Part shown: in pieces, positions 18,365 through 34,594 of the stretch | Position numbering within the stretch: the first letter of the stretch is position 1 | Layout: every line of letters begins with the position of its first letter | Source of the DNA: a virus | Lineage: Duplodnaviria; Caudoviricetes | IMG/VR virus record: IMGVR_UViG_3300027828_000051 | Span: 1-42,104 of that record | Strand: one strand, 5' to 3' | DNA: 42,104 bases | The notes under the pieces: generated by a model | Seen by the model: only the letters and a program-made list of their open reading frames with translations | The model's database searches: none | Told to the model about the DNA's origin: nothing | Translations under genes and position numbers: made by a program

Positions 18365-18393
18365 TTGACAGAGCCACACATAAGCCTTATATT
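18365..18393 (+). promoter_or_regulatory. Early sigma70 promoter P1
   Basis: TTGACA-17 nt-TATATT, followed by AGTATTATAGGAGATACGAAATG. Confidence 0.8.
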
Positions 18394-18413
18394 AGTATTA
18401 TAGGAGATACGAA

Positions 18414-18686
18414 ATGAAGAAAAGAATAATTTACATGGCTACATTCTATGGTAAGAAACATGATCTTGAGATGTTTAAAAACTCAGGTGTTATGTTTCCC
18501 ACATACACTAACCTACAGCGAAACGTCAGAACGGAAGTGAAAGATGTTCCTGACAATAGAGTGTTTAACTCAGACCAATTGTTAGTCACTTGGTACTGTG
18601 AAACTGAGTGTAAGCAATCTGACTTATTCAATTTTAGTGAGATGCTCCTCTGGAGATGTAATATGATCGATTTCTACAGAGTCTAA
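18414..18686 (+). CDS. Hypothetical early protein (90 aa)
   Basis: AGGAG SD; first ORF after P1. Confidence 0.75.
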   Translation: MKKRIIYMATFYGKKHDLEMFKNSGVMFPTYTNLQRNVRTEVKDVPDNRVFNSDQLLVTWYCETECKQSDLFNFSEMLLWRCNMIDFYRV

Positions 18687-18689
18687 ATA

Positions 18690-18751
18690 ATCGAAACCTC
18701 CTTCGGGAGGTCTGCAATGATTGACCACATTGTACTGATGAGATAGGTCAA
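18690..18751 (+). ncRNA. Hammerhead ribozyme, type II with pseudoknot; predicted cleavage after C18712
   Basis: ATC-GAAA, stem III CCTCC/TTCG/GGAGG, TC^, stem I TGCAATG/CATTGTA, core CTGATGA, then GAT closing stem II. Loop I TTGACC pairs with the 3' tail GGTCAA. Confidence 0.93.
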
Positions 18752-18763
18752 GGGAGATATGAG

Positions 18764-19003
18764 ATGAGTAAACGTCTAAATAAAGACAGACAAGAAAAAC
18801 TTGAACCATTACGGATGCAGAAAGCTCTAGATGAACTTGGTAAAAGAGTATTTATTCTTGCAGTTGGTACTAAGTCCATAAGATTCAGATTTAGAGAAAG
18901 TGTATGTTTTTACTGGCCCTATTCTGGTTGGGCATCAGGAAAAACAATTCGAGACGGTAGAGGACTTAAGAATCTTCTAAAACAAATTGACAAGGAGATA
19001 TGA
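18764..19003 (+). CDS. Hypothetical phage protein
   Basis: GGGAG SD; YWPYSGWASGKTIRDGRGLKNLL motif. Confidence 0.75.
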   Translation: MSKRLNKDRQEKLEPLRMQKALDELGKRVFILAVGTKSIRFRFRESVCFYWPYSGWASGKTIRDGRGLKNLLKQIDKEI

Positions 19004-19004
19004 G

Positions 19005-19232
19005 ATGGAAAGATTTATTATTACGTTCGGTCAGCAACATTGTCACAGAGCAAATGGAGTGACATTTGATAAGGATTCAGTGGCAGTTATCAAAGCTAAT
19101 AGTCACAGTCATGCCAGAGAGATTGCTTTTGAGCTTTTTGATAACAAGTTTGGAACTTCTTATACAGAAGAAGATTTCGATGAAGGTGGAGCCATTGAGT
19201 TCTTCCCAAGAGGTAAGTTCGATGCAAATTGA
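19005..19232 (+). CDS. Hypothetical phage protein
   Basis: AAGGAG SD; FIITFGQQH...HAREIAFELF pattern. Confidence 0.7.
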   Translation: MERFIITFGQQHCHRANGVTFDKDSVAVIKANSHSHAREIAFELFDNKFGTSYTEEDFDEGGAIEFFPRGKFDAN

Positions 19233-19287
19233 CACATTCAAAGTTGGAGATGAAGTTCAAATTGTTGAGGAGTCCAGCTTTCTGTAG
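19222..19287 (+). pseudogene. Truncated gene remnant (MQIDTFKVGDEVQIVEESSFL)
   Basis: GAGGT SD and a KOW-like FKVGDEV start; stops just before promoter P2. Confidence 0.4.
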
Positions 19288-19328
19288 AGTCTGTTACAAG
19301 AAACTTTAGACTTTTTCTGGGTTTCCTA

Positions 19329-19357
19329 TTGACGGAAGCCCAGTCTTCCCGTATATT
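19329..19357 (+). promoter_or_regulatory. Early sigma70 promoter P2
   Basis: TTGACG-17 nt-TATATT; flanks nearly identical to P1. Confidence 0.8.
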
Positions 19358-19378
19358 AGTATTATAGGGAGATACGAA

Positions 19379-20008
19379 ATGACAAAAACTGATTTATTAA
19401 AACTTGCAGAAATGGTAAATGATTCTTTTTTCTTTAACGAATTAGACTTAACAAATATTGAGTTTGAAATATCCAACAGGATGACAAGAACTTTAGGTAA
19501 CATCTACCATTACAGATCAACAGGCAGAATAGTTATTAAACTGTCTTCATGTATAATTGGTGATTCCAAAGTTGTATGGAACACAATGACTCATGAACTT
19601 ATCCACCTTGCACAGCTACAGAAAAACCATCCTCTTGGACACGGTTTATTTTTTCAATCTGAATGTGACAGAATAAACAAAATTGATTCTGAACTTTATC
19701 TTGCCAGAACTAATGATGTTCCTGCTGAAGTTGCACAGGTCATCCGTTCAAAAAGAATTGATAGACTCAGAGACAAAACTGTGAAGATTGAGAACAAAAG
19801 AATCATGATTAGATTCTACGATCTGACAACAGGTTGGACTGGACAATTCTTCATGCTGGAATCATTGGACATGACAATGAAGAAACTGAGAAGGGAGCTT
19901 CGCAAATTAAATAAAACAAACTACAAAGGAACCTGTCAGATTGCTATTGGTGATCACTCCTTTATGGAATATGATTTTGCTGCTCAGAAACTGAGAAGTA
20001 TGTTCTAA
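19379..20008 (+). CDS. SprT-like zinc metalloprotease
   Basis: SNRMTRTLG, HELIH (HExxH) and downstream HG..F motifs. Confidence 0.85.
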   Translation: MTKTDLLKLAEMVNDSFFFNELDLTNIEFEISNRMTRTLGNIYHYRSTGRIVIKLSSCIIGDSKVVWNTMTHELIHLAQLQKNHPLGHGLFFQSECDRINKIDSELYLARTNDVPAEVAQVIRSKRIDRLRDKTVKIENKRIMIRFYDLTTGWTGQFFMLESLDMTMKKLRRELRKLNKTNYKGTCQIAIGDHSFMEYDFAAQKLRSMF

Positions 20009-20025
20009 TTCATACCTCATTCGAT

Positions 20026-20200
20026 CATGAAATTACACAGTATTGACGCTGTATAATTTCATGCAATCCAGATCATGAGGCTGTATGTTTCATGTATTCA
20101 AATATTATATGATGTTCATATATCATTGACGTTGAAATTATCAAATATTGACTGACGCTGTGTATTTGTGCACGATTGCACATTGACGCTGTATGTCAAA
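20026..20200. repeat. Four-motif non-coding element, copy A
   Basis: TGASSCTGTRT at 20044, 20076, 20153 and 20184; 15-bp inverted repeat 20026-20040 / 20049-20063. Confidence 0.8.
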
Positions 20201-20217
20201 ATAAAAAGATTATTTCA

Positions 20218-20246
20218 TTGACGTATTGACGTATATATCTTAAAAT
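20218..20246 (+). promoter_or_regulatory. sigma70-type promoter
   Basis: TTGACG-17 nt-TAAAAT upstream of the HTH gene. Confidence 0.6.
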
Positions 20247-20290
20247 AGTTATATAAGGTTTGATAAAAAATAACGATCAGGAGGACATAA

Positions 20291-20518
20291 ATGGAACTGA
20301 ACCCTACCAATATTGATGGTAAAGAGTATTACACAGTTCAAGAGTTCGCTGTTCTAGTAGGTAAGGGAGTTTCGCAGATATACGGCTTAATTCATAAAGG
20401 CCTGCTGAAGAGTGAAACGAAGTTCAATAAGAAATTTATCCCAGCTTCAGAAATGGAGAAGAAAGATAAATTGTTCGCAAACAAACACTACCAGTATTCA
20501 GGAGCACACTATGAATAA
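20291..20518 (+). CDS. Helix-turn-helix DNA-binding protein (excisionase/HTH_17-like)
   Basis: YYTVQEFAVLVGKGVSQIYGLIHKGLL...KFIP; AGGAGG SD. Confidence 0.85.
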   Translation: MELNPTNIDGKEYYTVQEFAVLVGKGVSQIYGLIHKGLLKSETKFNKKFIPASEMEKKDKLFANKHYQYSGAHYE

Positions 20519-20714
20519 GAGCGAAAGAATCATTAGAGATTTAAATGGGGATAAGCCCTTAAGAGCTTTCAGTGCAATTGTTAAGTGGTTAGTAATCATG
20601 GGGCTTAATATAGCCCTACTGATTATGTGTCTAAGATTCTACGACATTAAGCTCTGGCTTATCCTAACCATTTACTCATTGTTGTTTAAAGTCTACAAAA
20701 GTATATCGGAGTAG
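20511..20714 (+). CDS. Small membrane protein (two TM segments)
   Basis: ATG at 20511 after AGGAG; two hydrophobic stretches. Confidence 0.65.
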   Translation: MNKSERIIRDLNGDKPLRAFSAIVKWLVIMGLNIALLIMCLRFYDIKLWLILTIYSLLFKVYKSISE

Positions 20715-20719
20715 ATGTT

Positions 20720-21265
20720 ATGGTTAAAATGATTCCAGGAAAAACGTGTATAGGTTGCTGTTTCAATAAGCAAGTTGAATGTACATTCCCAACACCTTCA
20801 GAGAAGGAATGTGAACGTGGCTTTATATACAAAAAGACATATGATGAGCACATAGAAGTTAAAGACAATGGACAAGGAATGAACATCCCAGTTCCTGTGT
20901 CTTGGGAATATGAAACATACTGGAGATGTGGAGATATAGTTCATAACTTAAATGTACCATTTAAAGATTTAATTATTGAGTCTCCAGCTACGACGTCAGT
21001 CACTAAGCTGGGAGATGATCTGAACAAATGTAGAATAGCAACACCGATGGACGGCAGAGAGGTTTATGGTAGAGTTAAAATAACACGAAAAGGAACAAAG
21101 GTAGAAGATACTAAGATAAATCTGTGTGACACTTGTAAGTTTACAGTCCCTGAATGTAGACCTCTGTTTGAAGACTTAAAGTTTGGAGACGGAACTGGAA
21201 ATGATAATGTCATAAAATGTGATGAGTACCAGAATGAAGAAACCATTAGACATTCGGAAAGTTAG
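20720..21265 (+). CDS. Cys-rich hypothetical protein
   Basis: CxxC clusters at both ends. Confidence 0.65.
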   Translation: MVKMIPGKTCIGCCFNKQVECTFPTPSEKECERGFIYKKTYDEHIEVKDNGQGMNIPVPVSWEYETYWRCGDIVHNLNVPFKDLIIESPATTSVTKLGDDLNKCRIATPMDGREVYGRVKITRKGTKVEDTKINLCDTCKFTVPECRPLFEDLKFGDGTGNDNVIKCDEYQNEETIRHSES

Positions 21266-21431
21266 AAACCTAAAGGGTTTTACCTGTAATGGTTGCTATT
21301 ACAATGGTGAGCATCTTTGTAGAAACTTGAGAGAAGATAACAATTGTTATGACGGCTACATTTATCAAGTGTTCAGGGAAGATGACAAGAGAATATTAAA
21401 AAGAGATAGAGGTGAAAATGGAAAAGTCTAA
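21234..21431 (+). CDS. Small Cys-rich protein
   Basis: CNGC..C..C..GYIY, similar to the N-terminus of the preceding ORF. Confidence 0.55.
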   Translation: MKKPLDIRKVRNLKGFTCNGCYYNGEHLCRNLREDNNCYDGYIYQVFREDDKRILKRDRGENGKV

Positions 21432-21777
21432 AACTACTGAGTGTCCACATTGTCACTCAAAAGACGATTACTACTTAACACAGTCTGGACAAGAAAATTG
21501 TACAAATTGTGAGAAAATAATCTGGGTTGGAAGAATTGACGGAGGACCAGCATTTTCAGTTTCAAATGACGCTGAAGACGAAGGAATGTCTCTAAGAGAT
21601 TATTTTGCTATCCATACTGATGTGTCAGATTTTAAGTTTCAAGACCAAGAGACTTTCGAAAAGTTCACTGGAATTAAAATTGTTGACATTGAGTCTGGGG
21701 TAAAAAGCGCTGCAACCGGACAAGCTAAGCTACGCTATGCTTTTGCTGATGCTATGCTGAAGGAGAGTAGGAAGTGA
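21418..21777 (+). CDS. Zn-ribbon plus phage gp38-like hypothetical protein
   Basis: CPHC/CTNC, then DGGPAF...GMSLRDYFA...YAFADAML. Confidence 0.75.
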   Translation: MEKSKTTECPHCHSKDDYYLTQSGQENCTNCEKIIWVGRIDGGPAFSVSNDAEDEGMSLRDYFAIHTDVSDFKFQDQETFEKFTGIKIVDIESGVKSAATGQAKLRYAFADAMLKESRK

Positions 21778-23477
21778 GCTTTAAAACAGTACCTTATAGA
21801 CATCAGTTAGTTGCATATGAGAAACTGAAGAACGAGAAGTTTTTTGCTTTATTTATGGACATGGGACTGGGTAAATCGAAGACAGCAATTGATATAGCTG
21901 TACATAAATATGAGAAGGGGCAGATTGATGCTGTTCTTGTTATCGCTCCTAACATGGTGCATGCTCAGTGGGCTGATGAGCAGATTCCTACTCACTGTTC
22001 AGTGCCGTTTAGTACATTTGTCTGGACAGCTTCAAAAGCAAATAGAAGACAGTATCAATTTCAAATGGAAAACTTCATGATGGAAGAACGCAAATTAAAG
22101 TTCTTCATGGTTAATGTTGAAACGTTCCAGAGTGAATCTGTTATCCCACATATTATTGAGTACGTGAAGAATAATGAAGTGTTCACTATTGTGGATGAAT
22201 CAACACGTATTAAAACGCCCACAGCGAAGCGTACCAAAACAATTACCAAACTTAACAAGTATGGACAAAGATGCATCCTGAGCGGAACACCAGTTGCTAA
22301 GTCACCATTTGATCTGTATGCTCCATTCAACTTCCTAAGTAAAGATTTCTTTCAAGTCAATTACTTCATTTTTAAACACAGATTTGGTGTGATGATGAAA
22401 GGAACAAATGAGTACACTGGAAGACCTTTCACGAAATTGATTGACGAGAAGAAGTTCTCAATTGTTAAGGGACGTATCGAGAATCTCAAGGCTGATAGAA
22501 GAATGACTACCATGAATATGGAATATGAATTGACATCAGCTGATCTGGAGATCTTATCAGCGGTTACAAGCATCAGTGAGAAGAATATCAAGTTCATAGA
22601 CAAACATGATGAGTATACTCGCTTCAAGAGGCTTGACGAGCTTCGTGATGCAATTGATCCTTACACCTTCTCAGTAAAGAAAGGTGACTTACACCAATTC
22701 GATCATGAGAGCTTTGATCACTTAGGAGTTCCAGCTCTCCCCAAGTTCCCTGACAAAGTGTATGTCTGTGAGTATGTACAAATGTCTAAGGAACAGAAGA
22801 AGATTTATGGGGACCTCAAGAAACATTTGTTAGCTGAATACTCAGGACATGAACTGTCAGTTCAACAGAAGGTTTCGCTGAGCATTAGACTTCGTCAAGT
22901 TACAGGTGGCTATTTTCCCTATGAGGAAGAATCTGAAAAGATGCTCAACTATAAGAAAGTTCCATTCATGAAAAAGCAATCTGAAATGATCGGGAAGAAA
23001 AATGTGAAGATGGAAAGGATCCATGAACTGCTTGAAGAAATGGGTGATGAGTCAATTATTATCTGGGCGTCTTTCGTAGCTGAGATTGAAGCGATTTATG
23101 AGGAGCTGAAGAAATCTTATTCCTGTGAGCTGTATTACGGAGCTACATCGAAAAAGGAAAGGGCAAGGATCAAGGATGACTTCATGGCTAAGAAGTTCCA
23201 GATATTCATTGGCAACCCGTCTGTAGCAGGTTTCGGGCTCAACTTACAGGTCTCGACTATTCAGCTATGGTATAGCAACTCATACAGGACAGAGGACAGA
23301 TTACAGGCTGAGGATAGATCACATAGAATAGGTACAACACAGAACATCGTGTACAAAGATATCATTGCTAAGGGAACACTGGACGAGAAGATATATAAAG
23401 CGATCAGGGAAGGTAGAAACCTGAACGATTACTTTTCTCAGACGTCACTTGAGGAAATGCTCGATGGCGAAAATTAG
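21774..23477 (+). CDS. SNF2-family (SF2) helicase
   Basis: PYRHQ, DMGLGKS, VDES, LSGTP, GLNL and QAEDRSHRIG motifs. Confidence 0.95.
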   Translation: MSFKTVPYRHQLVAYEKLKNEKFFALFMDMGLGKSKTAIDIAVHKYEKGQIDAVLVIAPNMVHAQWADEQIPTHCSVPFSTFVWTASKANRRQYQFQMENFMMEERKLKFFMVNVETFQSESVIPHIIEYVKNNEVFTIVDESTRIKTPTAKRTKTITKLNKYGQRCILSGTPVAKSPFDLYAPFNFLSKDFFQVNYFIFKHRFGVMMKGTNEYTGRPFTKLIDEKKFSIVKGRIENLKADRRMTTMNMEYELTSADLEILSAVTSISEKNIKFIDKHDEYTRFKRLDELRDAIDPYTFSVKKGDLHQFDHESFDHLGVPALPKFPDKVYVCEYVQMSKEQKKIYGDLKKHLLAEYSGHELSVQQKVSLSIRLRQVTGGYFPYEEESEKMLNYKKVPFMKKQSEMIGKKNVKMERIHELLEEMGDESIIIWASFVAEIEAIYEELKKSYSCELYYGATSKKERARIKDDFMAKKFQIFIGNPSVAGFGLNLQVSTIQLWYSNSYRTEDRLQAEDRSHRIGTTQNIVYKDIIAKGTLDEKIYKAIREGRNLNDYFSQTSLEEMLDGEN

Positions 23478-23655
23478 AAGACCTATCAGCATTACTGATA
23501 TTGACATTGAAGTAGCACCAAAATACGATGGTAAAAAAGGTGTATGGAAATCCATGAGAAAATGCTTTCCTTGCACAAAGAAACTTGATAGGAATGTTTA
23601 CTACAATACGGATGGTAAGAAACATTGGTGTCCATATTGCAACAAAGAGAAATAA
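23464..23655 (+). CDS. Small Zn-finger protein
   Basis: CFPC...CPYC; GAGG SD. Confidence 0.55.
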   Translation: MAKIRRPISITDIDIEVAPKYDGKKGVWKSMRKCFPCTKKLDRNVYYNTDGKKHWCPYCNKEK

Positions 23656-23686
23656 TCATCGGGAGAGAGTCTAGTGGAGGCACATC

Positions 23687-23998
23687 ATGAAGTGTGGCAG
23701 TTTGTTTTTGACCTGTGTACTGTTAATAGTTTTAGCGATTCCACTATTTGCAGACCAGTCCTTGGTTAACCCCGTAGGAGAATTATCAGCAATCAGTACT
23801 ATGAATACAGAGGAGGTACCATTTCACGAACAAGAATTGATAGACTTAAATGTTCCAGTTCTTGCCGTGGGTATTAACAAGAGGTACCTACCAGATAGCG
23901 GAAAGTCGAAGCAGTCCGTACTTATTGAAAAGACTGTTGTTAAGATAGCCAATAATGGATATGGAGGTGTTCGTCGGATTAAATCCGGCAGACATTAA
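23687..23998 (+). CDS. Secreted hypothetical protein
   Basis: GGAGG SD; signal peptide ending LAIPLFA. Confidence 0.65.
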   Translation: MKCGSLFLTCVLLIVLAIPLFADQSLVNPVGELSAISTMNTEEVPFHEQELIDLNVPVLAVGINKRYLPDSGKSKQSVLIEKTVVKIANNGYGGVRRIKSGRH

Positions 23999-24074
23999 CA
24001 TAACAAGTGCACCTAAGAGAATGAGATGTCCCGTTGAGGACTATATAGATTCACTAAATAATTTTTGAAAAGAT

Positions 24075-24119
24075 AAGGAGACAGTACTTCGTTTATCGGC
24101 TGATTTACTGTCTCTTTTT
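24075..24119 (+). terminator. Hairpin terminator / possible RBS switch
   Basis: AAGGAGACAGTA-19 nt-TACTGTCTCTTT, ending in a T5 run. Confidence 0.55.
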
Positions 24120-24133
24120 AAAAGGAGACTGAG

Positions 24134-24361
24134 ATGAATATTGATGATGGGAGAATCAGGGAACTTGCAGAGGATCAAATTACGTCAGAAAGAGAAGTTA
24201 TGATTCATACAAAAGACCTGACTGAGAAACAGAAAAAGAACAAACAGGTTTCTTTAAAAGACCATCGAAGCAAAGCTGGTAAGATTCTTACCGAAGCTCG
24301 TTGGAACGACATGAATAAAAACCAGCAAAGAAACTTAAGAAAGAAACTTAAGAAAAAATAG
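24134..24361 (+). CDS. Basic hypothetical protein
   Basis: AAGGAG SD; 75 aa. Confidence 0.65.
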   Translation: MNIDDGRIRELAEDQITSEREVMIHTKDLTEKQKKNKQVSLKDHRSKAGKILTEARWNDMNKNQQRNLRKKLKKK

Positions 24362-24370
24362 AGATTACTG

Positions 24371-24399
24371 TTGACAGCTTTATATATCAGACTTACATT
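24371..24399 (+). promoter_or_regulatory. sigma70 promoter P3
   Basis: TTGACA-17 nt-TACATT. Confidence 0.75.
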
Positions 24400-24430
24400 A
24401 GATATATAAACAACCAATAGGAGATTTGAA

Positions 24431-24640
24431 ATGACAAACACAAAACAGGAAAGAATTGAAAACGTAATTGCTAAACACGGAACTAAAGGTTACACAATGA
24501 GACAGCTTGCTAACTTCGCAAAGGTTTCTACAAAAACATTTAGAACACGATGTTCAAAACTTGGTAAAAAAGATCTGATATACGGTATTCACTCCGGTCG
24601 TGTATCAGCCTATAAAATGTCAGCAACTTTATGTGTCTGA
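24431..24640 (+). CDS. Small basic HTH-like protein
   Basis: YTMRQLANFAKVSTKTFRTR resembles an HTH; its TGA stop lies inside the ribozyme core. Confidence 0.7.
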   Translation: MTNTKQERIENVIAKHGTKGYTMRQLANFAKVSTKTFRTRCSKLGKKDLIYGIHSGRVSAYKMSATLCV

Positions 24641-24715
24641 TGAGTCCGGAAGGACGAAACAGGATTGAGAGTCTAAACTCGGGTGTTGTAACTCGCTCTC
24701 AATCCTGTCACACAT
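24631..24715 (+). ncRNA. Hammerhead ribozyme, type I; predicted cleavage after C24709
   Basis: Stem I ATGTGT/ACACAT, core CTGATGA, stem II GTCC/GGAA/GGAC, GAAA, 12-bp stem III CAGGATTGAGAG/CTCTCAATCCTG, and a GTC^ triplet. Confidence 0.93.
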
Positions 24716-24735
24716 TATATTTATTGAGGTGAAAA

Positions 24736-25344
24736 ATGAAAGACTTAAAAAGAGGTGATTTGGTTTACCATAAAGAACTTGGGGTTGGTATTGTACACAT
24801 GTCTAATGATCAAGTTGCTATTGAAGTACAATTTGAAGGCAGAGATTGTATGACAGTTGTTAACAGAAAAATGTTATTTGTTAAAGGTGACAAAGTTGAG
24901 TACAAAACAAACGGAAAATGGATCTCAAAAGGTAATTCTACCTTCAATGCTCCCATGATACATAACAGAAAATGTGACTCAAGATTCACTGTCTACAATG
25001 ATTATTCTGCTTCAGGTTTAAAGTATGTTTTTGACGTTCGACACGTACCTGAGAAGAAACAGACAGCTCTATTCCCCGAAGATGAGCTTGAGATCCTAAA
25101 AACAGCGGAAAGAACAGTTACTAACTATCCTATTCAAGCTCAACAACTTTGTAAAACCATGGAAAGAGCAGGACAGGCCGCCTCTATGGGTTTCGATGCT
25201 GACAAAGAACTTAAGAAAAGAATCTATCTTGGTGCTTATACTCCAGATGAACCAGACACATCCACAGAAAAGAAAGATCTCCTGAAACGTCTTGAGATTC
25301 TCAAACTAAAGTCACAGATCAAGGAATTGGAAAGTGAACTATAA
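24736..25344 (+). CDS. Hypothetical protein with SH3/KOW-like N-terminus
   Basis: LKRGDLVYHKELGVGIV; GAGGT SD. Confidence 0.7.
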   Translation: MKDLKRGDLVYHKELGVGIVHMSNDQVAIEVQFEGRDCMTVVNRKMLFVKGDKVEYKTNGKWISKGNSTFNAPMIHNRKCDSRFTVYNDYSASGLKYVFDVRHVPEKKQTALFPEDELEILKTAERTVTNYPIQAQQLCKTMERAGQAASMGFDADKELKKRIYLGAYTPDEPDTSTEKKDLLKRLEILKLKSQIKELESEL

Positions 25345-25543
25345 GGAAGCGACATATTACACTGAAAAAAGAACAAAGGTGTATTTGGAGCTAAGAGGTG
25401 ACCAGGTAATACATCTGGTCACCGAGAAAAATGCTGATCTTTACCTAGAGCTGAGACATGAAAAGCCAGACATGGTAAAGTATTTTGACAAAGAATACGA
25501 GTTAACTAACTTCGTTTTAGAAGAAGGTTTCTTTATTATATAG
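25334..25543 (+). CDS. Hypothetical protein
   Basis: Overlapping GTG start; fills the gap in the operon. Confidence 0.55.
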   Translation: MNYKEATYYTEKRTKVYLELRGDQVIHLVTEKNADLYLELRHEKPDMVKYFDKEYELTNFVLEEGFFII

Positions 25544-25553
25544 GAGGTGTGAG

Positions 25554-26285
25554 ATGAATGAGTTGAGAATTAAGACACTCATGGATTTAGGTTTAAAGTT
25601 CGACGGCCAGCAGTTCGCCTATAAAGATATAAACTTCCATCATACAGACATTTTATGTATGTCAGATGATGAGTTTAATTCTGCGGTTGAGGGAGCTACC
25701 GAACGAAAGAAACAATTAGGAGGTACTATGGAGAATAGTGCTACACCGGATTTTTTAACCGGTAAAGACGAAATGTCTGGAAATGTTCTTGAAGAACTAC
25801 AGGCAAAGGTGGATAAGTTTTTAAGTGTATCAGCTGAAGTTGAAGATGCTGAAGCAGCACTCAAAGAACTTAAGAAAGTAAAGAACAGGTTTTCAGAGGA
25901 GGAGATCCCAAACCTGTTGAAACAGTATGGTCTATCAGAGATCAGGCTCGAGAGCAAACAGAAAGTTATTGTTACTGAGGATTTATCAGTTTCAATCTCA
26001 AACAACTTTGCTTTTCATAAGTTCTTACGTGAAAGAAAGCATGATGATATAATAAAGTCTACGTTCTCTTTCGGTAAATTGTCACATGATGACTACACAA
26101 AGGTTGCAGATGCAATTGACACTACTGGCCTCGATTTTGAGGCTACTGATAAGGTTGAAGCGCCAACCAGAAAGAAGTACTTCAAAGAACTTATTGGAAT
26201 GGGTGAAAGTGCACCAGAAATGACACTTGCAGAATTACCAGAATGGGCTAAGGCCTTCGTTATTAAAAAGACTAAAATCAAATAG
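25554..26285 (+). CDS. Conserved phage protein upstream of SSB (second in-frame start at 25728)
   Basis: Coiled coil plus IPNLLKQYGLSEIRL...HDDIIK motif; AGGAGGT SD at both starts. Confidence 0.7.
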   Translation: MNELRIKTLMDLGLKFDGQQFAYKDINFHHTDILCMSDDEFNSAVEGATERKKQLGGTMENSATPDFLTGKDEMSGNVLEELQAKVDKFLSVSAEVEDAEAALKELKKVKNRFSEEEIPNLLKQYGLSEIRLESKQKVIVTEDLSVSISNNFAFHKFLRERKHDDIIKSTFSFGKLSHDDYTKVADAIDTTGLDFEATDKVEAPTRKKYFKELIGMGESAPEMTLAELPEWAKAFVIKKTKIK

Positions 26286-26295
26286 GAGATTTTAA

Positions 26296-27072
26296 ATGGC
26301 AAAGATATTTACAAAAGGTGACCAGCCTAAAGAAGAAGTAAAAGATCAATTTGAGTCTTTCTTCGATGCAAACGACACAGCTGAAGGTTTTCAGGATATT
26401 AACTCGGAAACTATGGCCATTCCTTTCGTCAAAATTGCTCAGCAATTATCACCAGCAATGAAGGAAAGTAAGCCTGAGTATATTCCTGGACTGAAACAGG
26501 GACAGTTCTACAACTCAGTTACCAAAGAAATCTATGGTGATAAGATACAGGTAGTTGTTGGTAAGTTCGATAGAATCTATACTGAGTGGCTCCCTAAAAG
26601 AAAGGGTTTCGTAGGTTACCATACACCTGAAGAAGCTGAAGACCTGGCTGATGATAAAACGTTCGGTAAATGGAAGCGTTCAAATGGGAATCTGTTGCAG
26701 GAAAACTATGTTTACTATGTAGTTCTCATCGGACATGAGCATGAGAAAGTTATGATTATGTCACTGACTTCTACTCAGATTAAAAAAGCGAAAGCTTGGA
26801 ACAGGAACCTGACTACAACAGTTATGCCAAATGGTGTGGCTGCTCTCCCTTATTATCTGAGATGGGACCTTGGTACCGTTGAAGAACACAAAGACGGCAA
26901 TGACTGGTTTGGAGTTACTATCAATTTCGCTGGTCTTGTTGATGAGGGACAGTATACACTTGTCAAGGAAGAAAGAACAATGATCGAGCATAAGAAAGTT
27001 GACTATGCACAGATCGAAGATTCCTCTTCAAGTAATGTTGAAGACGCTGAAGACGGTGATGTAGATTATTAG
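26296..27072 (+). CDS. Single-stranded DNA-binding protein (probable)
   Basis: IPFVKIAQQLSP motif; very acidic C-terminal tail; replication module context. Confidence 0.7.
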   Translation: MAKIFTKGDQPKEEVKDQFESFFDANDTAEGFQDINSETMAIPFVKIAQQLSPAMKESKPEYIPGLKQGQFYNSVTKEIYGDKIQVVVGKFDRIYTEWLPKRKGFVGYHTPEEAEDLADDKTFGKWKRSNGNLLQENYVYYVVLIGHEHEKVMIMSLTSTQIKKAKAWNRNLTTTVMPNGVAALPYYLRWDLGTVEEHKDGNDWFGVTINFAGLVDEGQYTLVKEERTMIEHKKVDYAQIEDSSSSNVEDAEDGDVDY

Positions 27073-27081
27073 AATTAAAAC

Positions 27082-27103
27082 GTGGGCCTCGTATGGGGCC
27101 TAC
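27082..27103 (+). other. GC-rich intergenic hairpin after SSB
   Basis: GTGGGCCTC-GTAT-GGGGCCTAC, with no U-tract. Confidence 0.5.
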
Positions 27104-27124
27104 AATCAATCATAAGGAGTAAAC

Positions 27125-27772
27125 ATGTCTTTACTTATCACTCCTACCTTATTGGACGCCTATGACTGGCTTAATAAGGCTCCTCGGTCTTGGAAGAAAA
27201 AGGCCTTCGATGATTTTTCTAATAAACTACATCGAACAAAGTGGGATCCAACTCCTGCAATAAAACGAGGTATAGACTTTGAAAAGAAAGTTTATGCTAA
27301 TTGTAATCGTGACTTAGACACATTTAAGTCCTCAGAGATATTCAAAGAAGTATGTAATGACTGTAAAGGCGGGGACTTTCAAAAGGTCCTCAAGAAAGTC
27401 ATTATGGTTGACGGCAGAGAGTTCCTGTTGTACGGTAAAACGGATGCATGGTTTCCAACTGTAATCAAAGATATTAAAACGACTAAGAACTATAAAGGTC
27501 AGTCAAAATATCTCGGTGGTTGGCAGCATAAAGTGTACTGTTACATAGACAACAATGTACACTTCGAGTATCTTGTTGTAGAATGGTCAGATGAGATTGA
27601 AGAGGATGATAAATTAGTCCCAGCTGAAGTCTTTAAGATTCATTACACAATGGAAGATCGAGCAGCTGTTAAAGAAGAAATTGTAGAACAGATACGTGAG
27701 ATGATGCAATTCATTGATACAGACGATATTCTGGCTAAAGCTTACTATAAGACATTTAATAAATACGGCTGA
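27125..27772 (+). CDS. PD-(D/E)XK (Cas4/RecB-like) exonuclease
   Basis: RGIDFE, GKTD, IKDIKT and QHKVY motifs. Confidence 0.8.
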   Translation: MSLLITPTLLDAYDWLNKAPRSWKKKAFDDFSNKLHRTKWDPTPAIKRGIDFEKKVYANCNRDLDTFKSSEIFKEVCNDCKGGDFQKVLKKVIMVDGREFLLYGKTDAWFPTVIKDIKTTKNYKGQSKYLGGWQHKVYCYIDNNVHFEYLVVEWSDEIEEDDKLVPAEVFKIHYTMEDRAAVKEEIVEQIREMMQFIDTDDILAKAYYKTFNKYG

Positions 27773-27774
27773 CT

Positions 27775-29349
27775 ATGGGAACAGGAAAACTAGATATAAT
27801 TGAGTTCTCGAGAATATTCAGTGGAAACAAGCAGGCCTTTGGTGTACATGAGTATGATGCACCTAATGAACAGGGAGAGAAAAGAAGCGGTAAAAGTAGA
27901 ACAGCAACTCAGCCATTGACTGAGAAACAGTACATTGAACACCTCTCCGGTAAACAAGGTCTTGGTATAATTCCCATAAACGAGAGAAATAAATGTCAGT
28001 TTTCTGTTATAGATATTGATGAATATAAAGTAAGTTTTAAAAAGTATTTTAAGATAGTTGAAGACTATGGTCTTCCTCTATCTTTTTTCAGATCTAAGAG
28101 TGGTGGACTACACATGTATGTCTTCTTCGATCAAGAGTACCCAGCAAAGGACGTTGTAGAAGTAATGCAAAAACTTCTCATCGTTCTGGGACTGAAAAAA
28201 GATACTGAGATATTCCCGAAACAGACAAGAATACAAAAGAACGGATTTGGTAACTGGATCAATTTACCTTACTTCGATGCATCGAATAATCCTACACAAT
28301 ATTTGTATGACTCAGAACAGAATGAGATGAGTCTGAGCCAAGCAATACAGCATATAAAAGAACAGGCAGTCACAGTTGAAGAATTAAAAGATATTGTATC
28401 GTCTGTTCCATTTGCTGATGCACCTCCTTGTCTACAAACATTGTATATACTAAACGACTTTAATAAAGATACACATAACAGAAATGATTTCCTAATGCAG
28501 GTAGCAACTTATCTGAAGAACAAATATGAGGAGGACTTTCCTAAACATTTATTAGATGTAAATGATCGATTCCCAGAACCAACACCTTACAAAGAAATTG
28601 AGACCACTGTCATCAATTCACACAATCGAAAAACATATGCTTATGGGTGTAAGACACCACTACTTTCTGCAGTATGCAATAAGGAAGTATGTAAGCTGAG
28701 ACAGTTTGGAATAACAAGTCTCGAGGCTCCTAGTGTTGACTATGGTACGCTGAGTCAATTCGTTGGACTTTCAACAAGGTACGAATGGGAAGTTAATAAT
28801 AAAGTATTGAAGTTTAATTCCGAAGATGATATTATGAGTCAGGGAAACTTTCTCAAATTATGCATCAGGGAGTTAAAAGAATACCCGTTCAGACTATCTC
28901 AGAAAAGATGGGACAGGGTAATAAGAGAAGCAGTTGATGGAATGGAAGTGAAAGACGACAAGGATGAGTTTTCAAATGAGACTTTATTCATGGACTACTT
29001 GAATAAGTTCCTGACTGAGGGAGCTCCTGCTAGGACTAAAGATCAGATAGGACTCCATAGAGTATTTCTAGATATGGAAATTAAATGTTACGTATTTAGA
29101 AGAGTTGATTTGATGGATTTTTTAGAAACTAAAAGATTTAACAAATTGAAACCGAAAGAGGTCAAGGAGATTCTTGTTAAGATTAAAAGTTTTGAGAAGA
29201 AATATCCCATAGAACCTAGCAAGACAACAAGATGCTGGCTAACACCAGTTGAGTCTGTTGATAATCACCTGAGGATTGAAGAAAAGCCTGATGATGAATT
29301 ACTAGAAGACTTCGGAGAATACCAAGAAGAAGGTGAGAATGAATATTGA
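27775..29349 (+). CDS. Archaeo-eukaryotic primase (prim-pol) family DNA primase
   Basis: HLSG..GLGI, DID, RSKSGGLH, EIFPKQ and GNWINLPY motifs; PPCL plus C-terminal Cys cluster. Confidence 0.85.
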   Translation: MGTGKLDIIEFSRIFSGNKQAFGVHEYDAPNEQGEKRSGKSRTATQPLTEKQYIEHLSGKQGLGIIPINERNKCQFSVIDIDEYKVSFKKYFKIVEDYGLPLSFFRSKSGGLHMYVFFDQEYPAKDVVEVMQKLLIVLGLKKDTEIFPKQTRIQKNGFGNWINLPYFDASNNPTQYLYDSEQNEMSLSQAIQHIKEQAVTVEELKDIVSSVPFADAPPCLQTLYILNDFNKDTHNRNDFLMQVATYLKNKYEEDFPKHLLDVNDRFPEPTPYKEIETTVINSHNRKTYAYGCKTPLLSAVCNKEVCKLRQFGITSLEAPSVDYGTLSQFVGLSTRYEWEVNNKVLKFNSEDDIMSQGNFLKLCIRELKEYPFRLSQKRWDRVIREAVDGMEVKDDKDEFSNETLFMDYLNKFLTEGAPARTKDQIGLHRVFLDMEIKCYVFRRVDLMDFLETKRFNKLKPKEVKEILVKIKSFEKKYPIEPSKTTRCWLTPVESVDNHLRIEEKPDDELLEDFGEYQEEGENEY

Positions 29350-30730
29350 TATTATTTTTGGACCTCCCGGAACAGGGAAGACCACAGAATTATTAAATAT
29401 ACTGGAGACTGAGTTAAAGACAGTTCCTCCAGAAGAAATAGCATATGTAAGTTATTCTAGAAAAGGTGCTTACGAAGGACGAGACAGGGCGCTGGAGAAG
29501 TTCCCTGATTACTCCGAAACTAATTTCAAATACTTCAGAACTCTACACTCTATAGCATTTAGAGAACTGAACATTTCAAAAGGAATGATGATCGAGAAAA
29601 AGCATTACAAACAACTCAGCAAGAAGCTGGGTTTCAAGTTTACTGGATTCTTCACTGAAGACTTCCATAACAGCAAAGATGATGCTTTCTTAATGTATGA
29701 TATATTAAAAAGAAATAACAATAAAGCTGCCATGAAAATGCTTGCTAGTTTAGAAGTTCATCAGTTGAGATATGTACAATTAAACTATAAACACTTCAGA
29801 GATGCTTTAGGTATAATGGATTTTACTGATCTAATTGAAAGATTCATCAAGAACAATAAAGCTCTACCTGTCAAGGTTGCAATAATTGACGAAGCACAGG
29901 ACTTGACATCTCTGCAGTGGCAAATGGTTCTCACAGCATTTAAAGAGTGTGATAGGATATATATTGCTGGAGATGATGATCAGGCACTATATCAATGGGC
30001 AGGTGCTGACGTTGAGTTCTTCCTGAAGATCCAAGGAAATCAAAGAATATTGAGTAGATCATATAGATTGCCGAAACCCATTTGGGACTACAGTCGACAG
30101 ATCACAGACATGATAGGATATAGAGCACCTAAAGAATACACGTACAACAGCACTGAGGGCTCTGTGAACGTAGTTGGCGACTTAAGTGACATTGACATGT
30201 CAAAAGATAAATGGATGATCATAGGACGCAATATAACGCACCTGAACAAAGTTATGGATTATCTACGAAGTATTCCTGTGATGTTCACATGGAAAAATAA
30301 ATTATCTGTTATGCCAACACATATAAGTGCTATCAATCATTATGAGAAAATCAGGAAGTCAGACGACAAATCACGTTTCCACATCTTAGATGGACTAATT
30401 GATATTGATAAGTTCAACGACTGGGATAAGCCTTGGTATGAAGTCTTTAATTTGCCAGAGAATATAATAACTTATTACAGAGATATTTTACGTGACAAGA
30501 TCAACACAAAAGAATATAATATTGAAGTGAACACAATTCATGGAGTAAAAGGAGGTGAGTGTGAGAACGTTGTACTAATCCTTGATTACAGTAGAAACGT
30601 TCATAAGAACTGGAATGAGAATCCCGATTCAGAACTTAGGTGTTACTATGTTGGAGTGACTCGAGCAAAGAAGAACTTATACATTGTTCCATCAAAAAGT
30701 AGATACGGTTTTCCGTTGATGAAATTATAG
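29339..30730 (+). CDS. UvrD-like SF1 helicase
   Basis: GPPGTGKT, DEAQD, GDDDQ, SYR, TIHGVKGGE and YVGVTRAK motifs. Confidence 0.93.
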   Translation: MNIDIIFGPPGTGKTTELLNILETELKTVPPEEIAYVSYSRKGAYEGRDRALEKFPDYSETNFKYFRTLHSIAFRELNISKGMMIEKKHYKQLSKKLGFKFTGFFTEDFHNSKDDAFLMYDILKRNNNKAAMKMLASLEVHQLRYVQLNYKHFRDALGIMDFTDLIERFIKNNKALPVKVAIIDEAQDLTSLQWQMVLTAFKECDRIYIAGDDDQALYQWAGADVEFFLKIQGNQRILSRSYRLPKPIWDYSRQITDMIGYRAPKEYTYNSTEGSVNVVGDLSDIDMSKDKWMIIGRNITHLNKVMDYLRSIPVMFTWKNKLSVMPTHISAINHYEKIRKSDDKSRFHILDGLIDIDKFNDWDKPWYEVFNLPENIITYYRDILRDKINTKEYNIEVNTIHGVKGGECENVVLILDYSRNVHKNWNENPDSELRCYYVGVTRAKKNLYIVPSKSRYGFPLMKL

Positions 30731-30739
30731 GAGATAGAA

Positions 30740-30979
30740 ATGAAATGTGAGATTAAGATTGTTAGAGACAAATCAAGTAGCTATGACTCTGAAAAAACAG
30801 TAATAGTGATTACTGAAGCAACAGAAACTGAGAAGTTCCTTATCAGTAATCAGATGACAGGAAGTTACAGAAGTCCTGAAGAAGTGAAAGGCATGATGGT
30901 TAGTGACTTACACATGTGCCTCGAAGAACATTTGTCTAAGATTGAAGAAGTTTTAGGAGATAGAAATGATAATAGTTGA
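30740..30979 (+). CDS. Hypothetical protein
   Basis: AGGAG SD; in operon. Confidence 0.65.
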   Translation: MKCEIKIVRDKSSSYDSEKTVIVITEATETEKFLISNQMTGSYRSPEEVKGMMVSDLHMCLEEHLSKIEEVLGDRNDNS

Positions 30980-31505
30980 AGGTGCTGATGGTAGTGGAAA
31001 AACTACCCTAGTTAATTTGATTAAAGCTGCATACCCAGAGTTTAAGTCCATACATTCTCCAGGACCCCTGAGTCTTGAAGTATTGAAAGAAAGAATGTTT
31101 TGGAACGATGAGTTAATAAAATTGGACTTTGTCATAACTGACAGGTTTACAATGTTCTCTGAGTTCGTGTATGGTGAAATCTTAAGAGGTCATTCGTTAG
31201 TTAACAACGGGGACATAGCTAAGTGGACTACAAAGTTCAAACAGAATGAGAAGAATCTTATTATTTTTTGTGACAGGGAGTTTGTACCTATTCACAAGAA
31301 ACACGGTGCTATCCATATGACCGAAGATGAAAAGATGAAATTGGAAGTTGAAGTCGATTCTAAACTTGAAGAAATCAGGGAAGAGTACAGACTTATATTC
31401 AACTGGTTAAAACAAGCTTACCAGAATACAAAGATTGTAACTGTTAAGGAGCCTGAAGACGTGACGTTGGCTATTGAAACAATTAGAACATTGTATATAG
31501 ATTAG
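30966..31505 (+). CDS. dNMP (thymidylate-kinase-like) P-loop kinase
   Basis: IIVEGADGSGKTT and DRF...SEFVYG motifs. Confidence 0.85.
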   Translation: MIIVEGADGSGKTTLVNLIKAAYPEFKSIHSPGPLSLEVLKERMFWNDELIKLDFVITDRFTMFSEFVYGEILRGHSLVNNGDIAKWTTKFKQNEKNLIIFCDREFVPIHKKHGAIHMTEDEKMKLEVEVDSKLEEIREEYRLIFNWLKQAYQNTKIVTVKEPEDVTLAIETIRTLYID

Positions 31506-31514
31506 GAGAAGTAA

Positions 31515-32126
31515 ATGAATATTAACGATGTAGAAAAAACAGACAAACCAGAAAACAAGTTAAAAGCGATATTTGACAAGCAAAAAGAATTGGCTATCAA
31601 GTATCATCCCATTGAAGAGAAATCAGGACTGCTTCAGACAACTGACTTTCCTGTAGACTTGAACGATCCCGCAGGACAAGCGAGACTTAAGGATTTAGCT
31701 TGGAGAACTATCGAGGAACTCGGTGAAGCTTTTGAGTGTATAAATGACGGAGATGAACACTTCGAGGAAGAACTCATTGATGGTCTACATTTCTTTGTTG
31801 AACTGTTGCTATCAGCTGGTATTGACCACAAGCCCTTTACAACACTCGAAAGCTTACATGAAGCTGTGATGGCTCCGTTCTCATTCAGTGACGCAGCTTG
31901 GATGTTTACAAGTGAACTGGGACTGTGTATGAATTGTCTGAAGAACAAACCCTGGAAACAAACTCATATGGAAACTGATGTGGTCTATCTCAGAACTAAA
32001 CTGATCGGTGCTTTTATACATTTTGTTGCTATGCTGAAGACAGCCGGTTTATCTGCTGACGATATTTATAGTTATTACTTTAAAAAGAATAAAGTAAATC
32101 AATTCCGACAGAGGAGCAATTACTAA
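31515..32126 (+). CDS. All-alpha dimeric dUTPase/dCTPase (T4 gp56-like)
   Basis: EELGE, EELIDGLHF, KPWK and YFKKNKVNQFRQ motifs. Confidence 0.85.
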   Translation: MNINDVEKTDKPENKLKAIFDKQKELAIKYHPIEEKSGLLQTTDFPVDLNDPAGQARLKDLAWRTIEELGEAFECINDGDEHFEEELIDGLHFFVELLLSAGIDHKPFTTLESLHEAVMAPFSFSDAAWMFTSELGLCMNCLKNKPWKQTHMETDVVYLRTKLIGAFIHFVAMLKTAGLSADDIYSYYFKKNKVNQFRQRSNY

Positions 32127-33286
32127 TGAAAGTTCTGGGAGTATATGGTGGGATAGGTTCTATGCTTGTCGCCGCTAGAAATGCTGGCTGTCAAGTTGTA
32201 GGTAATATTGAGCCACGAGACTTTGAAGATGGACAGACGTTCATACACAATTTTCCAGGTACTCAGTTCTCAAAAGGTAAGTTTTTACCAGTAGAACCAG
32301 ATCTTATTGTTGGTCATCCTTCCTGTGGAAGTTATTCTGCGATTAACTGGCGAAGTGACAAAGTAAAACGTGATGAAGTCGAGAACTTTGTAACTGCAGT
32401 TAGAATATATATGCCGAGTTCATTTATCATGGACAATTTACCAAAGATGTTTATTGACTATGATGCTGACTATTGGTACAATGAGTTATCAGAGTTCTAT
32501 GATATTTCTCCGGTGTTTGTAAACAACAGGAACTATGGAAATGCTCAGGTGAGGAAAAGAGTTTATTTAATTGGTACGCTGAGAAAGTATAACTATGTTC
32601 CATTGCCAGGTGAGAATAGAAACTTGAAGACAACCACGAAAGATGTCATAGGACACTTGCTAGGATCGGAGGGTAAGATAGAAAATCATAATGATGTTGA
32701 CTATGAAGACAATTGGTCTTCTATGACAAATGTTATGGCTCATAATACAAAAACTAAGTATAAAGATGCTTTACAACATGTTGCTAATTGGCCTGAAGGA
32801 AAGTCCTTTAAATACTTTAAAAGTGACGGTTCTGAAGGTACAAGAATTGGTTTGACTAAGGCAAGGTGGGATGGACATTGTCCAACGTTAGCTAGTACAG
32901 CTAGACAGATTCATCCAGCAAGATGTACTCCGTTTACTATCAAAGAACAATTATTGCTTATGGGTTATCCTGAGGACTTTGTGATCAAAGGAATGCCAGT
33001 TAGTACTGATGGTACTTGGAAGATACGTGGTAAAGAATACCATCAAACCAATAAGGGTGTTTGTGTTCAGTCGATACAGTTCTTTATTGATCAGGTGAAG
33101 AACTTCATTGAATCAGACGGTCATTATGACATGGACAAGGTGACTGGTATTGAAGAATCATTAGCACCTGAAGTAAACACATTTAAATATATGTATTGCC
33201 AAAAAGAGGGTACTACTATAAGATCTATGAAATGTTCAATCTGTAAGATGAGAACAATTTGTAAGAAAAAGGAGATGAGAAAATGA
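32126..33286 (+). CDS. Divergent C5-cytosine DNA methyltransferase-like protein
   Basis: Motif I YGGIG, IV GHPSCGSYS, VI MDNL, VIII QVRKRVYLIG, IX/X IHP...LMGYPEDF...KGV; C-terminal Cys cluster. Confidence 0.8.
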   Translation: MKVLGVYGGIGSMLVAARNAGCQVVGNIEPRDFEDGQTFIHNFPGTQFSKGKFLPVEPDLIVGHPSCGSYSAINWRSDKVKRDEVENFVTAVRIYMPSSFIMDNLPKMFIDYDADYWYNELSEFYDISPVFVNNRNYGNAQVRKRVYLIGTLRKYNYVPLPGENRNLKTTTKDVIGHLLGSEGKIENHNDVDYEDNWSSMTNVMAHNTKTKYKDALQHVANWPEGKSFKYFKSDGSEGTRIGLTKARWDGHCPTLASTARQIHPARCTPFTIKEQLLLMGYPEDFVIKGMPVSTDGTWKIRGKEYHQTNKGVCVQSIQFFIDQVKNFIESDGHYDMDKVTGIEESLAPEVNTFKYMYCQKEGTTIRSMKCSICKMRTICKKKEMRK

Positions 33287-34565: not shown

Positions 34566-34594
34566 AACGAAAAAGAGATAGAATTGGAGATTTT

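What the first reader, a model, noticed from the sequence alone, without database searches (positions are those of the whole stretch)
18365..24736. Recurrent promoter / single small ORF / hammerhead architecture
Two topologically different hammerheads each sit right after the first small ORF of a strong sigma70 promoter (P1, 18414..18686, ribozyme; P3, 24431..24640, ribozyme). The different topologies suggest independent acquisition for the same job. Hammerhead cleavage leaves a 2',3'-cyclic phosphate and a 5'-OH (established). Inference: the first gene is released as a monocistronic mRNA, and downstream genes get a 5'-OH end that resists 5'-monophosphate-dependent decay, giving protein-free operon processing. 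A read-through RNA cut at both sites (5,997 nt) would have RtcB-ligatable ends, although a hairpin at 24075-24119 may terminate it first.
Basis: partly seen in the sequence, partly recalled or inferred. Interest (0 to 1): 0.8.

Follow-up and report, generated by a model that had tools for sequence, protein, structure and literature searches.

The report
Hammerheads ending phage first-gene mRNAs
An uncultured phage carries two well-formed hammerhead ribozyme motifs, each directly behind the first small gene of a predicted promoter, a layout also found in two related phages; they likely cut that gene's message off like a terminator that does not stop transcription, a known kind of phage element whose purpose remains untested.

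Summary
Both hammerheads are real: type II at 18690-18751 (Rfam, above cut-off, 6-bp pseudoknot) and type I at 24631-24715 (intact core; its UGA is the gene's stop). Each follows the first ORF of a sigma70-like promoter in a 42-kb siphovirus-like genome. The layout recurs among helicase-related phages: all 4 hammerheads in 17 records follow a first ORF (54 of 908 ORFs are first). The closest relative keeps the P3 / winged-helix gene / type I unit but has a terminator where HHR1 sits. In a third phage the gene after the ribozyme has its own promoter. This favours making the first gene's 3' end over stabilising downstream RNA; 5'-OH protection depends on the unknown host (RNase J degrades 5'-OH RNA). 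Across IMG/VR the rule is weak: 88 of 108 type II motifs abut a stop codon, but only 10 of 108 show promoter / one ORF / ribozyme. Circles are unsupported. Processing of phage polycistrons by hammerheads was proposed and tested in 2011, and this scan noted similar layouts on other DNA. Verdict: new member of a known kind, with a useful ribozyme-for-terminator swap. No RNA data.

The parts
18365..18393 (+). P1, predicted sigma70-type promoter (TTGACA-17-TATATT, 11/12)
   Evidence: repeat family with P2 and P3
18414..18686 (+). First ORF of P1, 90 aa, orphan
   Evidence: no Pfam or PHROG family; only its own sequence found as homolog; no usable Atlas feature hit
18690..18751 (+). HHR1, type II hammerhead with loop I / tail pseudoknot; predicted cut after 18712; starts 3 nt after the stop codon, ends next to the following Shine-Dalgarno
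18764..19232 (+). Two small ORFs (79 and 75 aa, PHROGs of unknown function) on the predicted 3' product of HHR1
19329..19357 (+). P2, predicted promoter, 77% like P1 over 47 nt; its first ORF has no hammerhead
19379..20008 (+). SprT-like ORF (209 aa), first ORF of P2, followed by a long hairpin at 20026-20063 without a U run
   Evidence: PF10263 above cut-off; hairpin
20218..20246 (+). Predicted promoter of an operon that begins with an HTH_17-like ORF (20291-20518) and includes the SNF2 helicase; no ribozyme or gap after the first ORF
24075..24119 (+). Hairpin with a short U run, possible weak terminator upstream of P3
   Evidence: (z -1.96); not listed by the terminator scan
24371..24399 (+). 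P3, predicted promoter (TTGACA-17-TACATT); both hexamers identical in relative G003
24431..24640 (+). First ORF of P3, 69 aa, predicted winged helix-turn-helix protein; last three codons form stem I and the stop codon is the first UGA of the ribozyme core
   Evidence: model H-E-H-H-E-E, pLDDT 70.9; best fold matches are winged-helix domains, none at E<=0.001; Atlas HTH clusters
24631..24715 (+). HHR2, type I hammerhead, GGAA loop II and U at position 1.7, long stem III; predicted cut after 24709
   Evidence: counterpart in G003 with exchanged stems I and III
24736..37875 (+). Tightly packed DNA-replication and nucleotide-metabolism genes (primase, helicase, thymidylate kinase and synthase, methylase, polymerase A) on the predicted 3' product of HHR2
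   Evidence: PHROGs; gene gaps

Best explanation
Two intact hammerhead motifs sit directly behind the first gene of two predicted host-polymerase promoters and likely cut the transcript there, acting as a terminator that does not stop transcription. The first gene would come off as a message of about 300 nt ending in a hairpin and a cyclic phosphate, while the polymerase goes on into the downstream genes, which would then be carried on a separate RNA with its own half-life and translation rate. Shown: the motifs, their positions, their recurrence in relatives, and a terminator in the matching slot of the closest relative. From established knowledge: such motifs cleave in vitro and in cells and leave 2',3'-cyclic phosphate and 5'-OH. 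Inferred: promoter activity, cleavage during infection, and that the benefit is a defined 3' end and uncoupled decay for the first gene. Whether the downstream RNA gains or loses stability depends on the host's RNases and cannot be called.
For: Motifs canonical and far above chance. In 17 related records (window plus 16, several partial) 4 of 4 hammerheads follow a first ORF after an intergenic >=10/12 promoter, while 54 of 908 ORFs are of that class; out of sample are G003 (7 of 57 ORFs first) and G020 (4 of 55). G003 keeps P3, a 70% homolog of the winged-helix ORF and a type I hammerhead with different stems I and III. At the P1 place G003 has promoter, unrelated 86-aa ORF, then a 10-bp hairpin with U run. 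In G020 the 71-aa first ORF ends 4 nt before a type I motif and the next gene has its own promoter; promoter matches there are 13 against 1.2 expected. Terminator-like ends follow 9 of 54 first ORFs against 50 of 854 others. Clustered prophage hammerheads cleaved ~2-kb native transcripts in vitro and, for one cluster, in E. coli (PMC3088659 section 6); three type II motifs near phage-like genes of Desulfovibrio vulgaris showed cleavage ends in cells, one with few reads (PMC8782182 section 7 part 1).
Against: No RNA data for this phage. 14 of 16 related records show no hammerhead, so the element is dispensable in the family. Only 3 independent events support the layout, two of them the discovery set. 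In the wide survey most type II motifs have no detectable promoter upstream (68 of 108) and enrichment for first ORFs is modest (10 of 82 against 17 of 338; within-locus permutation P 0.085). In 141-nt context HHR2's active fold is 2.6 kcal/mol above a fold that hides the core, though 9 of 39 natural type I motifs look as bad. Twister cleavage in a 5'-UTR changed neither mRNA nor protein level in E. coli (PMC5052635, passages), so cleavage need not matter.
Confidence: 0.55

Rival explanations
1. One reading: the cut exists mainly to give the downstream genes a 5'-OH end that resists 5'-monophosphate-dependent decay, boosting their expression like a natural RiboJ insulator.
For: HHR1's 3' product begins with a 7-bp hairpin and keeps the whole pseudoknot. 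RiboJ raised mRNA about twofold and protein two- to tenfold in E. coli (PMC6206723, passages), attributed there to the hairpin. HHR2's 3' product would carry 13 kb of replication genes.
Against: RNase J1 rapidly degrades the 5'-OH glmS product (PMC3997798, passages). HHR2 and the G003 motif leave a weakly folded leader. In G020 the next gene has its own promoter. G003 replaces HHR1 by a terminator, which shares only the 3'-end function. Host unknown.
Confidence: 0.2
2. Generic cassette punctuation: type II hammerheads travel as compact stop-ribozyme-RBS spacers in mobile blocks of small early genes; falling after a first gene is a by-product of these blocks being short and promoter-rich, with no special selection on that rank.
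For: 88 of 108 type II motifs start within 15 nt of a stop against 110 of 1048 shifted positions; 42 of 108 loci hold more than one motif; where a promoter was seen (30 of 108) it was 0, 1, 2, 3, 4 or 5 ORFs away in 6, 10, 7, 4, 2 and 1 cases. Chance that both window motifs follow a first ORF is 0.066 within the 14 early boundaries. HHR1 and its ORF are missing from G003.
Against: 4 of 4 in this family follow first ORFs; the P3 unit is kept across a 69%-helicase divergence with stem changes.
Confidence: 0.15
3. Translation-gated switch at P3: ribosomes ending on the core UGA of the winged-helix gene unfold HHR2, so translation of this predicted regulator sets the cleavage rate, and cleavage frees the ribosome-binding site or changes the decay of the replication operon.
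For: Stop codon lies in the core; three homologs end at the same position in LCA, LYV, LCV, which fits the same overlap (DNA not seen). Folding puts the next Shine-Dalgarno in a short helix before cleavage in both the window and G003 with a 40-nt flank (opening cost 6.0 against 2.5-2.7 kcal/mol after).
Against: In G003 the stop is 57 nt upstream of the ribozyme. The Shine-Dalgarno effect falls to 0.4-1.5 kcal/mol with a 60-nt flank. Stop-in-core occurs in 4 of 39 unrelated type I motifs and is what gene compaction would give. For type II, RBS release matches controls (median 0.19 against 0.20 kcal/mol).
Confidence: 0.08
4. The two cuts make a 5,997-nt RNA that host RtcB closes into a functional circle.
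For: The end chemistry suits RtcB (PMC8782182, passages); the joint would not rebuild stem I of HHR2 (0 of the first 4 pairs), so it would not recut.
Against: Nothing holds the two ends together; hairpins at 20026-20063 and 24075-24119 and three more promoters lie between; G003 has only one ribozyme; no RNA ligase among 53 proteins scanned; no circles found in tested clusters (PMC3088659 section 6).
Confidence: 0.02

Closest known systems
Clustered hammerheads flanking single genes or short gene blocks in prophages (Perreault et al. 2011, PMC3088659; passages and section 6 read)
   Same: Types I and II mixed in one phage, intergenic, intact cores, pseudoknot in type II; the paper proposes processing into operon- or single-gene mRNAs and looked for circles without finding any.
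   Different: Here the motifs lie 6 kb apart in a phage with no integrase hit, each after the first gene of its own predicted promoter, and a relative has a terminator in one slot. The parts read do not discuss rank after a promoter; supplements were not read.
Type II hammerhead, Rfam RF02276, including the Desulfovibrio vulgaris motifs active in cells (PMC8782182; passages and section 7 part 1 read)
   Same: HHR1 passes the family cut-off and sits among hypothetical phage genes.
   Different: HHR1 activity not measured; host unknown.
Type I hammerhead, Rfam RF00163, with the loop II A / U1.7 contact (PMC11875169, passages)
   Same: HHR2 has the type I order, full core, a GNRA loop II and an unpaired U1.7; G003's motif has loop II ending in A and U1.7.
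   Different: Below Rfam thresholds because of its 13-bp-plus stem III; overlaps a coding sequence.
HHphage of haloviruses HF1/HF2 (PMC3088659, passage)
   Same: Hammerhead in the early region of a lytic phage; mapped 5' end matches the cut.
   Different: There the ribozyme precedes the first ORF of the transcript; here it follows the first ORF.
RNase III processing of the T7 early transcript (recalled, no call) and RiboJ insulators (PMC6206723, passages)
   Same: Cutting a polycistron between genes and leaving structured ends.
   Different: T7 uses a host protein and leaves 5'-phosphate; RiboJ is synthetic and sits in a 5' leader.

Membership tests
Type II hammerhead (RF02276) | Core GAAA...UH...CUGAnGA in type II order, stems I and III looped, stem II open | tested here: met
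   40.9 bits over cut-off 37; stems 7/3/5
Type II hammerhead (RF02276) | Pseudoknot between loop I and the tail after stem II | tested here: met
   6 Watson-Crick pairs; 9 of 108 surveyed motifs reach 6 or more
Type I hammerhead (RF00163) | Core CUGAnGA, stem II, GAAA, stem III, UH, with open stem I | tested here: met
   stems 6/4/13; structure kept with changed stems in G003
Type I hammerhead (RF00163) | Score above the Rfam gathering threshold | tested here: not met
   no RF00163 hit; G003's motif 24.3 bits against 34. This lowers filing under the Rfam model, not the structural class.
Type I hammerhead (RF00163) | Tertiary contact between stems I and II | tested here: inconclusive
   GGAA loop and U1.7 present by sequence in window, A-ending loop and U1.7 in G003; U1.7 occurs in 13 of 39 surveyed motifs, near chance; contact not modelled
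Hammerhead ribozymes (both) | Site-specific self-cleavage leaving 2',3'-cyclic phosphate and 5'-OH | not testable with these tools
   no RNA run listed
Phage gene-flanking hammerhead clusters (Perreault 2011) | Several hammerheads between genes of one phage, flanking genes or short blocks of changing identity | tested here: met
   two in one genome; flanking genes differ in G003 and G020; spacing of 6 kb is wider than the ~2-kb clusters tested there
Phage gene-flanking hammerhead clusters (Perreault 2011) | Cleavage of the native polycistronic transcript | not testable with these tools
   needs transcription assay
Ribozyme-generated circular RNA (retrozyme or viroid-like) | Two copies of the same ribozyme flanking a unit, so that ligation rebuilds it | tested here: not met
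   different types, unrelated stems; joint does not rebuild stem I

The most novel reading that the evidence does not exclude
In this siphovirus family hammerheads and intrinsic terminators are interchangeable 3' ends for the first gene of a host-polymerase promoter, and at P3 the ribozyme is written over the stop codon of a winged-helix regulator so that translation of the regulator gates the cut that releases the 13-kb DNA-replication message: a protein-free, translation-coupled control of phage replication genes.
Probability: 0.1. Interest if true: 0.72.

Novelty: new member of a known kind. Interest (0 to 1): 0.38.

Why it matters
The purpose of bacterial and phage hammerheads is still open (PMC6765202, passage). 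This family gives natural swaps that make it testable: ribozyme against terminator in the same slot (window against G003), stop codon inside against 57 nt outside the ribozyme behind the same gene, and a ribozyme followed by a fresh promoter (G020). Short reporter units from these phages could separate 'makes a 3' end' from 'protects a 5' end'. The phenomenon itself is known and common (about 300 and 630 stored IMG/VR stretches match two type II patterns), which limits surprise.

Tried and rejected
No RNA holder listed for the region; this says nothing on expression. Host not identified: no close cultured phage (best polymerase match 37.7%); one genome-bin contig with a 52% helicase is too weak to name a host. 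Other ribozyme classes: none in the window at E<=1, none above cut-off in 8 pieces of G003, G004 and G020 or 5 pieces of G001, G002; Rfam also missed the G003 and G020 type I motifs, so Rfam blanks are weak. RF02276 search of 19 related records: 0, with a silent control. Descriptor scan of 159 helicase-centred loci, 2.0 Mb: G020's motif and one poor type III-like match that I dropped as chance; 78 genome loci: none. More homologs of the winged-helix gene with DNA: only G003 in two scans, none in cultured phages; 8 further homologs are protein-only. Inhibitory hairpin over the HHR2 core as a designed switch: rejected, 9 of 39 natural type I motifs show as large a penalty. RBS release as the general function: rejected for type II (14 of 66 against 55 of 403 with >=2 kcal/mol). 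'Small' upstream ORF as a rule: median 82 aa against 75.5 aa for other ORFs, P 0.2. 'First in run' by gap size: 38 of 72 against 166 of 344, P 0.52. Function of ORF 18414-18686: ferredoxin-like fold matches on a low-confidence Atlas model (pLDDT 0.46), all under the naming bar. A 2017 paper on ribozymes in bacterial 3'-UTRs, recalled, is not held and may already cover part of this.
Full report
Setting. The window is a whole 42,104-nt contig with a 127-nt terminal overlap. It encodes terminase, head, tape-measure and Dit proteins on the minus strand and SNF2 helicase, primase, thymidylate enzymes, a methylase and polymerase A on the plus strand (PHROGs, 53 proteins scanned): a siphovirus-like phage with no integrase hit. 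Two marine-sediment DNA runs hold it, possibly its source; no RNA run is listed. The host is unknown.

The two motifs. Rfam finds a type II hammerhead at 18689-18752 above the family cut-off. A descriptor of my own (core plus three stems) finds exactly two motifs with stem sum >=13 in the window: this one (7/3/5 bp, cut after 18712) and a type I motif at 24631-24715 (6/4/13 bp, cut after 24709); 60 shuffles gave 0.05 hits each at >=13 and none at >=15. HHR1 has a 6-bp pseudoknot between loop I and the tail, the contact described for fast type II ribozymes (PMC3088659 section 6). HHR2 has a GGAA loop II and an unpaired U1.7, the contact described in PMC11875169 (passages); U1.7 alone is common (13 of 39). 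HHR1 starts 3 nt after the stop of ORF 18414-18686; the stop of ORF 24431-24640 is the first UGA of the HHR2 core.

Promoters. P1 scores 11/12 and P3 10/12, but the scan overall is at chance (46 against 48.1). Better support: P1, P2 and P3 form one repeat family, and P3's hexamers and spacing are identical in the closest relative. Six intergenic promoters of >=10/12 have a first ORF in the window: two end in a hammerhead, one in a terminator, one in a long hairpin, two run on into operons. The chance that both motifs fall after first ORFs is 0.014 over all 30 plus-strand boundaries and 0.066 over the 14 early ones, and the question was posed after seeing the data.

The first genes. ORF 18414-18686 is an orphan. 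ORF 24431-24640 is predicted to be a winged helix-turn-helix protein (model; fold matches, none at E<=0.001; Atlas). A regulatory role is inferred from the fold only. Behind HHR2 lie 13 kb of tightly packed replication genes.

Relatives. I gathered helicase relatives and read 16 IMG/VR records in full as stored; several are fragments. The descriptor found motifs in 2 of 16. G003 (helicase 69%) has the same promoter hexamers, a 70% homolog of the winged-helix ORF, a hairpin, and a type I motif whose stems I and III differ in sequence but pair; its stop lies 57 nt upstream. At the place of P1 it has an 11/12 promoter, an unrelated 86-aa ORF and a hairpin with a U run. G020 (helicase 48%, 62% GC) has an 11/12 promoter, an unrelated 71-aa ORF, a type I motif 4 nt after the stop, and then a new 10/12 promoter for the next gene. 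Counting with my simple gene caller, 4 of 4 motifs in the 17 records follow a first ORF, a class holding 54 of 908 ORFs (overlaps of fetched pieces may double-count a few); Fisher P 1e-5 overstates this, as two motifs are the discovery set and one is homologous. Terminator-like ends follow 9 of 54 first ORFs and 50 of 854 others. Three protein-only homologs end where the window's does (LCA, LYV, LCV), which fits a shared overlap with the core but was not seen in DNA.

Wide survey. For type II, 144 of 160 loci passed the structure check; 108 motifs remained after removing look-alikes and those with under 900 nt upstream. 88 of 108 start within 15 nt of a stop, against 110 of 1048 shifted positions. 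A >=10/12 promoter precedes the upstream ORF in 10 of 82 cases against 17 of 338 other ORFs (Fisher 0.024, within-locus permutation 0.085; at >=11/12, 6 of 82 against 7 of 338, permutation 0.03; at >=9/12, 0.068). One ORF between promoter and ribozyme is the commonest case where a promoter is seen (10 of 30), but 68 of 108 show none and 10 are interrupted. In the first set, 0 of 16 type I and 1 of 13 type III upstream ORFs had such a promoter. Limits: patterns favour certain stems, the gene caller is crude, and a sigma70 consensus misses many promoters. So abutting a stop is the rule; following a first gene is a tendency, strong in this family and weak outside.

Mechanism. The products differ by topology. 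HHR1 would leave the first mRNA ending in a UUCG hairpin and the downstream RNA starting with a hairpin and pseudoknot. HHR2 would leave the first mRNA ending in a long hairpin and the downstream RNA starting with 26 weakly folded bases. What both share with the G003 terminator and with G020 is a structured 3' end for the first gene, so I take that as the likely function, with read-through preserved. The fate of the 5'-OH RNA is open: the main decay enzymes prefer 5'-monophosphate (PMC10939160, abstract start in listing), RiboJ raises expression in E. coli (PMC6206723, passages), yet RNase J1 degrades the 5'-OH glmS product (PMC3997798, passages) and 5'-UTR twister cleavage alone had no effect in E. 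coli (PMC5052635, passages). Translation gating and RBS release at P3 are not excluded but are weak: the predicted effects depend on window size and match natural controls, and G003 lacks the overlap. The circle has no support.

Comparison. Perreault et al. 2011 described hammerheads flanking single genes or short blocks in prophages, proposed processing into operon- or single-gene mRNAs, showed cleavage of native transcripts, and found no circles. A 2019 review calls the purpose unresolved (PMC6765202, passages). Cleavage of type II motifs near phage-like genes was seen in cells (PMC8782182). In searches (listings) I saw no paper on rank after a promoter or on a terminator swap; subscription papers, one recalled 2017 paper and all supplements were not seen. 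Earlier unchecked notes of this scan report stop-abutting type II motifs and promoter / small ORF / ribozyme layouts on other DNA; they are leads, not evidence.

Verdict. Observation confirmed; interpretation partly supported. New member of a known kind; interest 0.38, mainly for the natural swaps that make the open question testable.

Noticed in passing
window 17930-18290; L424:10650-10960: Gene-free stretch between the divergent early and late arms with exact direct repeats (25 nt twice, 21 nt twice) and inverted repeats; similar motifs are visible in G003. Candidate origin or packaging site.
   Followed up: no
window 20026-20246: 5 of the 14 plus-strand TTGACG hexamers of the genome lie in 190 nt, one in the loop of the hairpin after SprT; candidate operator array before the HTH_17-like gene. 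A co-occurring contig shares a piece of it.
   Followed up: partly
window 24075-24135: The 5' arm of the hairpin (AAGGAGAC) is repeated right after it as the Shine-Dalgarno of ORF 24134-24361, so the 3' arm could pair with either copy; possible terminator / RBS switch.
   Followed up: no
P0124, P0125: Homologs of the winged-helix ORF with N-terminal additions (121 and 175 aa) but the same C-terminal end.
   Followed up: partly
L282:5260-7660 (G020): Array of AT-rich sigma70-like promoters each with one or two small ORFs in a 62% GC phage, 13 matches against 1.2 expected, with a type I hammerhead bearing a CUGACGA core.
   Followed up: yes
L008-L087, L537-L616: Phage type II hammerheads form a compact stop / ribozyme / Shine-Dalgarno / ATG cassette: 88 of 108 within 15 nt of a stop. 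One locus of the first set gave 11 candidate motifs in 3 kb. Earlier notes of this scan report the same habit.
   Followed up: partly
L001:6638-6786: tRNA match with a long insertion in relative G001; possible intron-bearing or class II tRNA.
   Followed up: no
window 1-127 and 41978-42104: 127-nt terminal overlap, so the contig is likely a complete circularly assembled genome; no tRNA; no integrase among 53 proteins scanned.
   Followed up: yes
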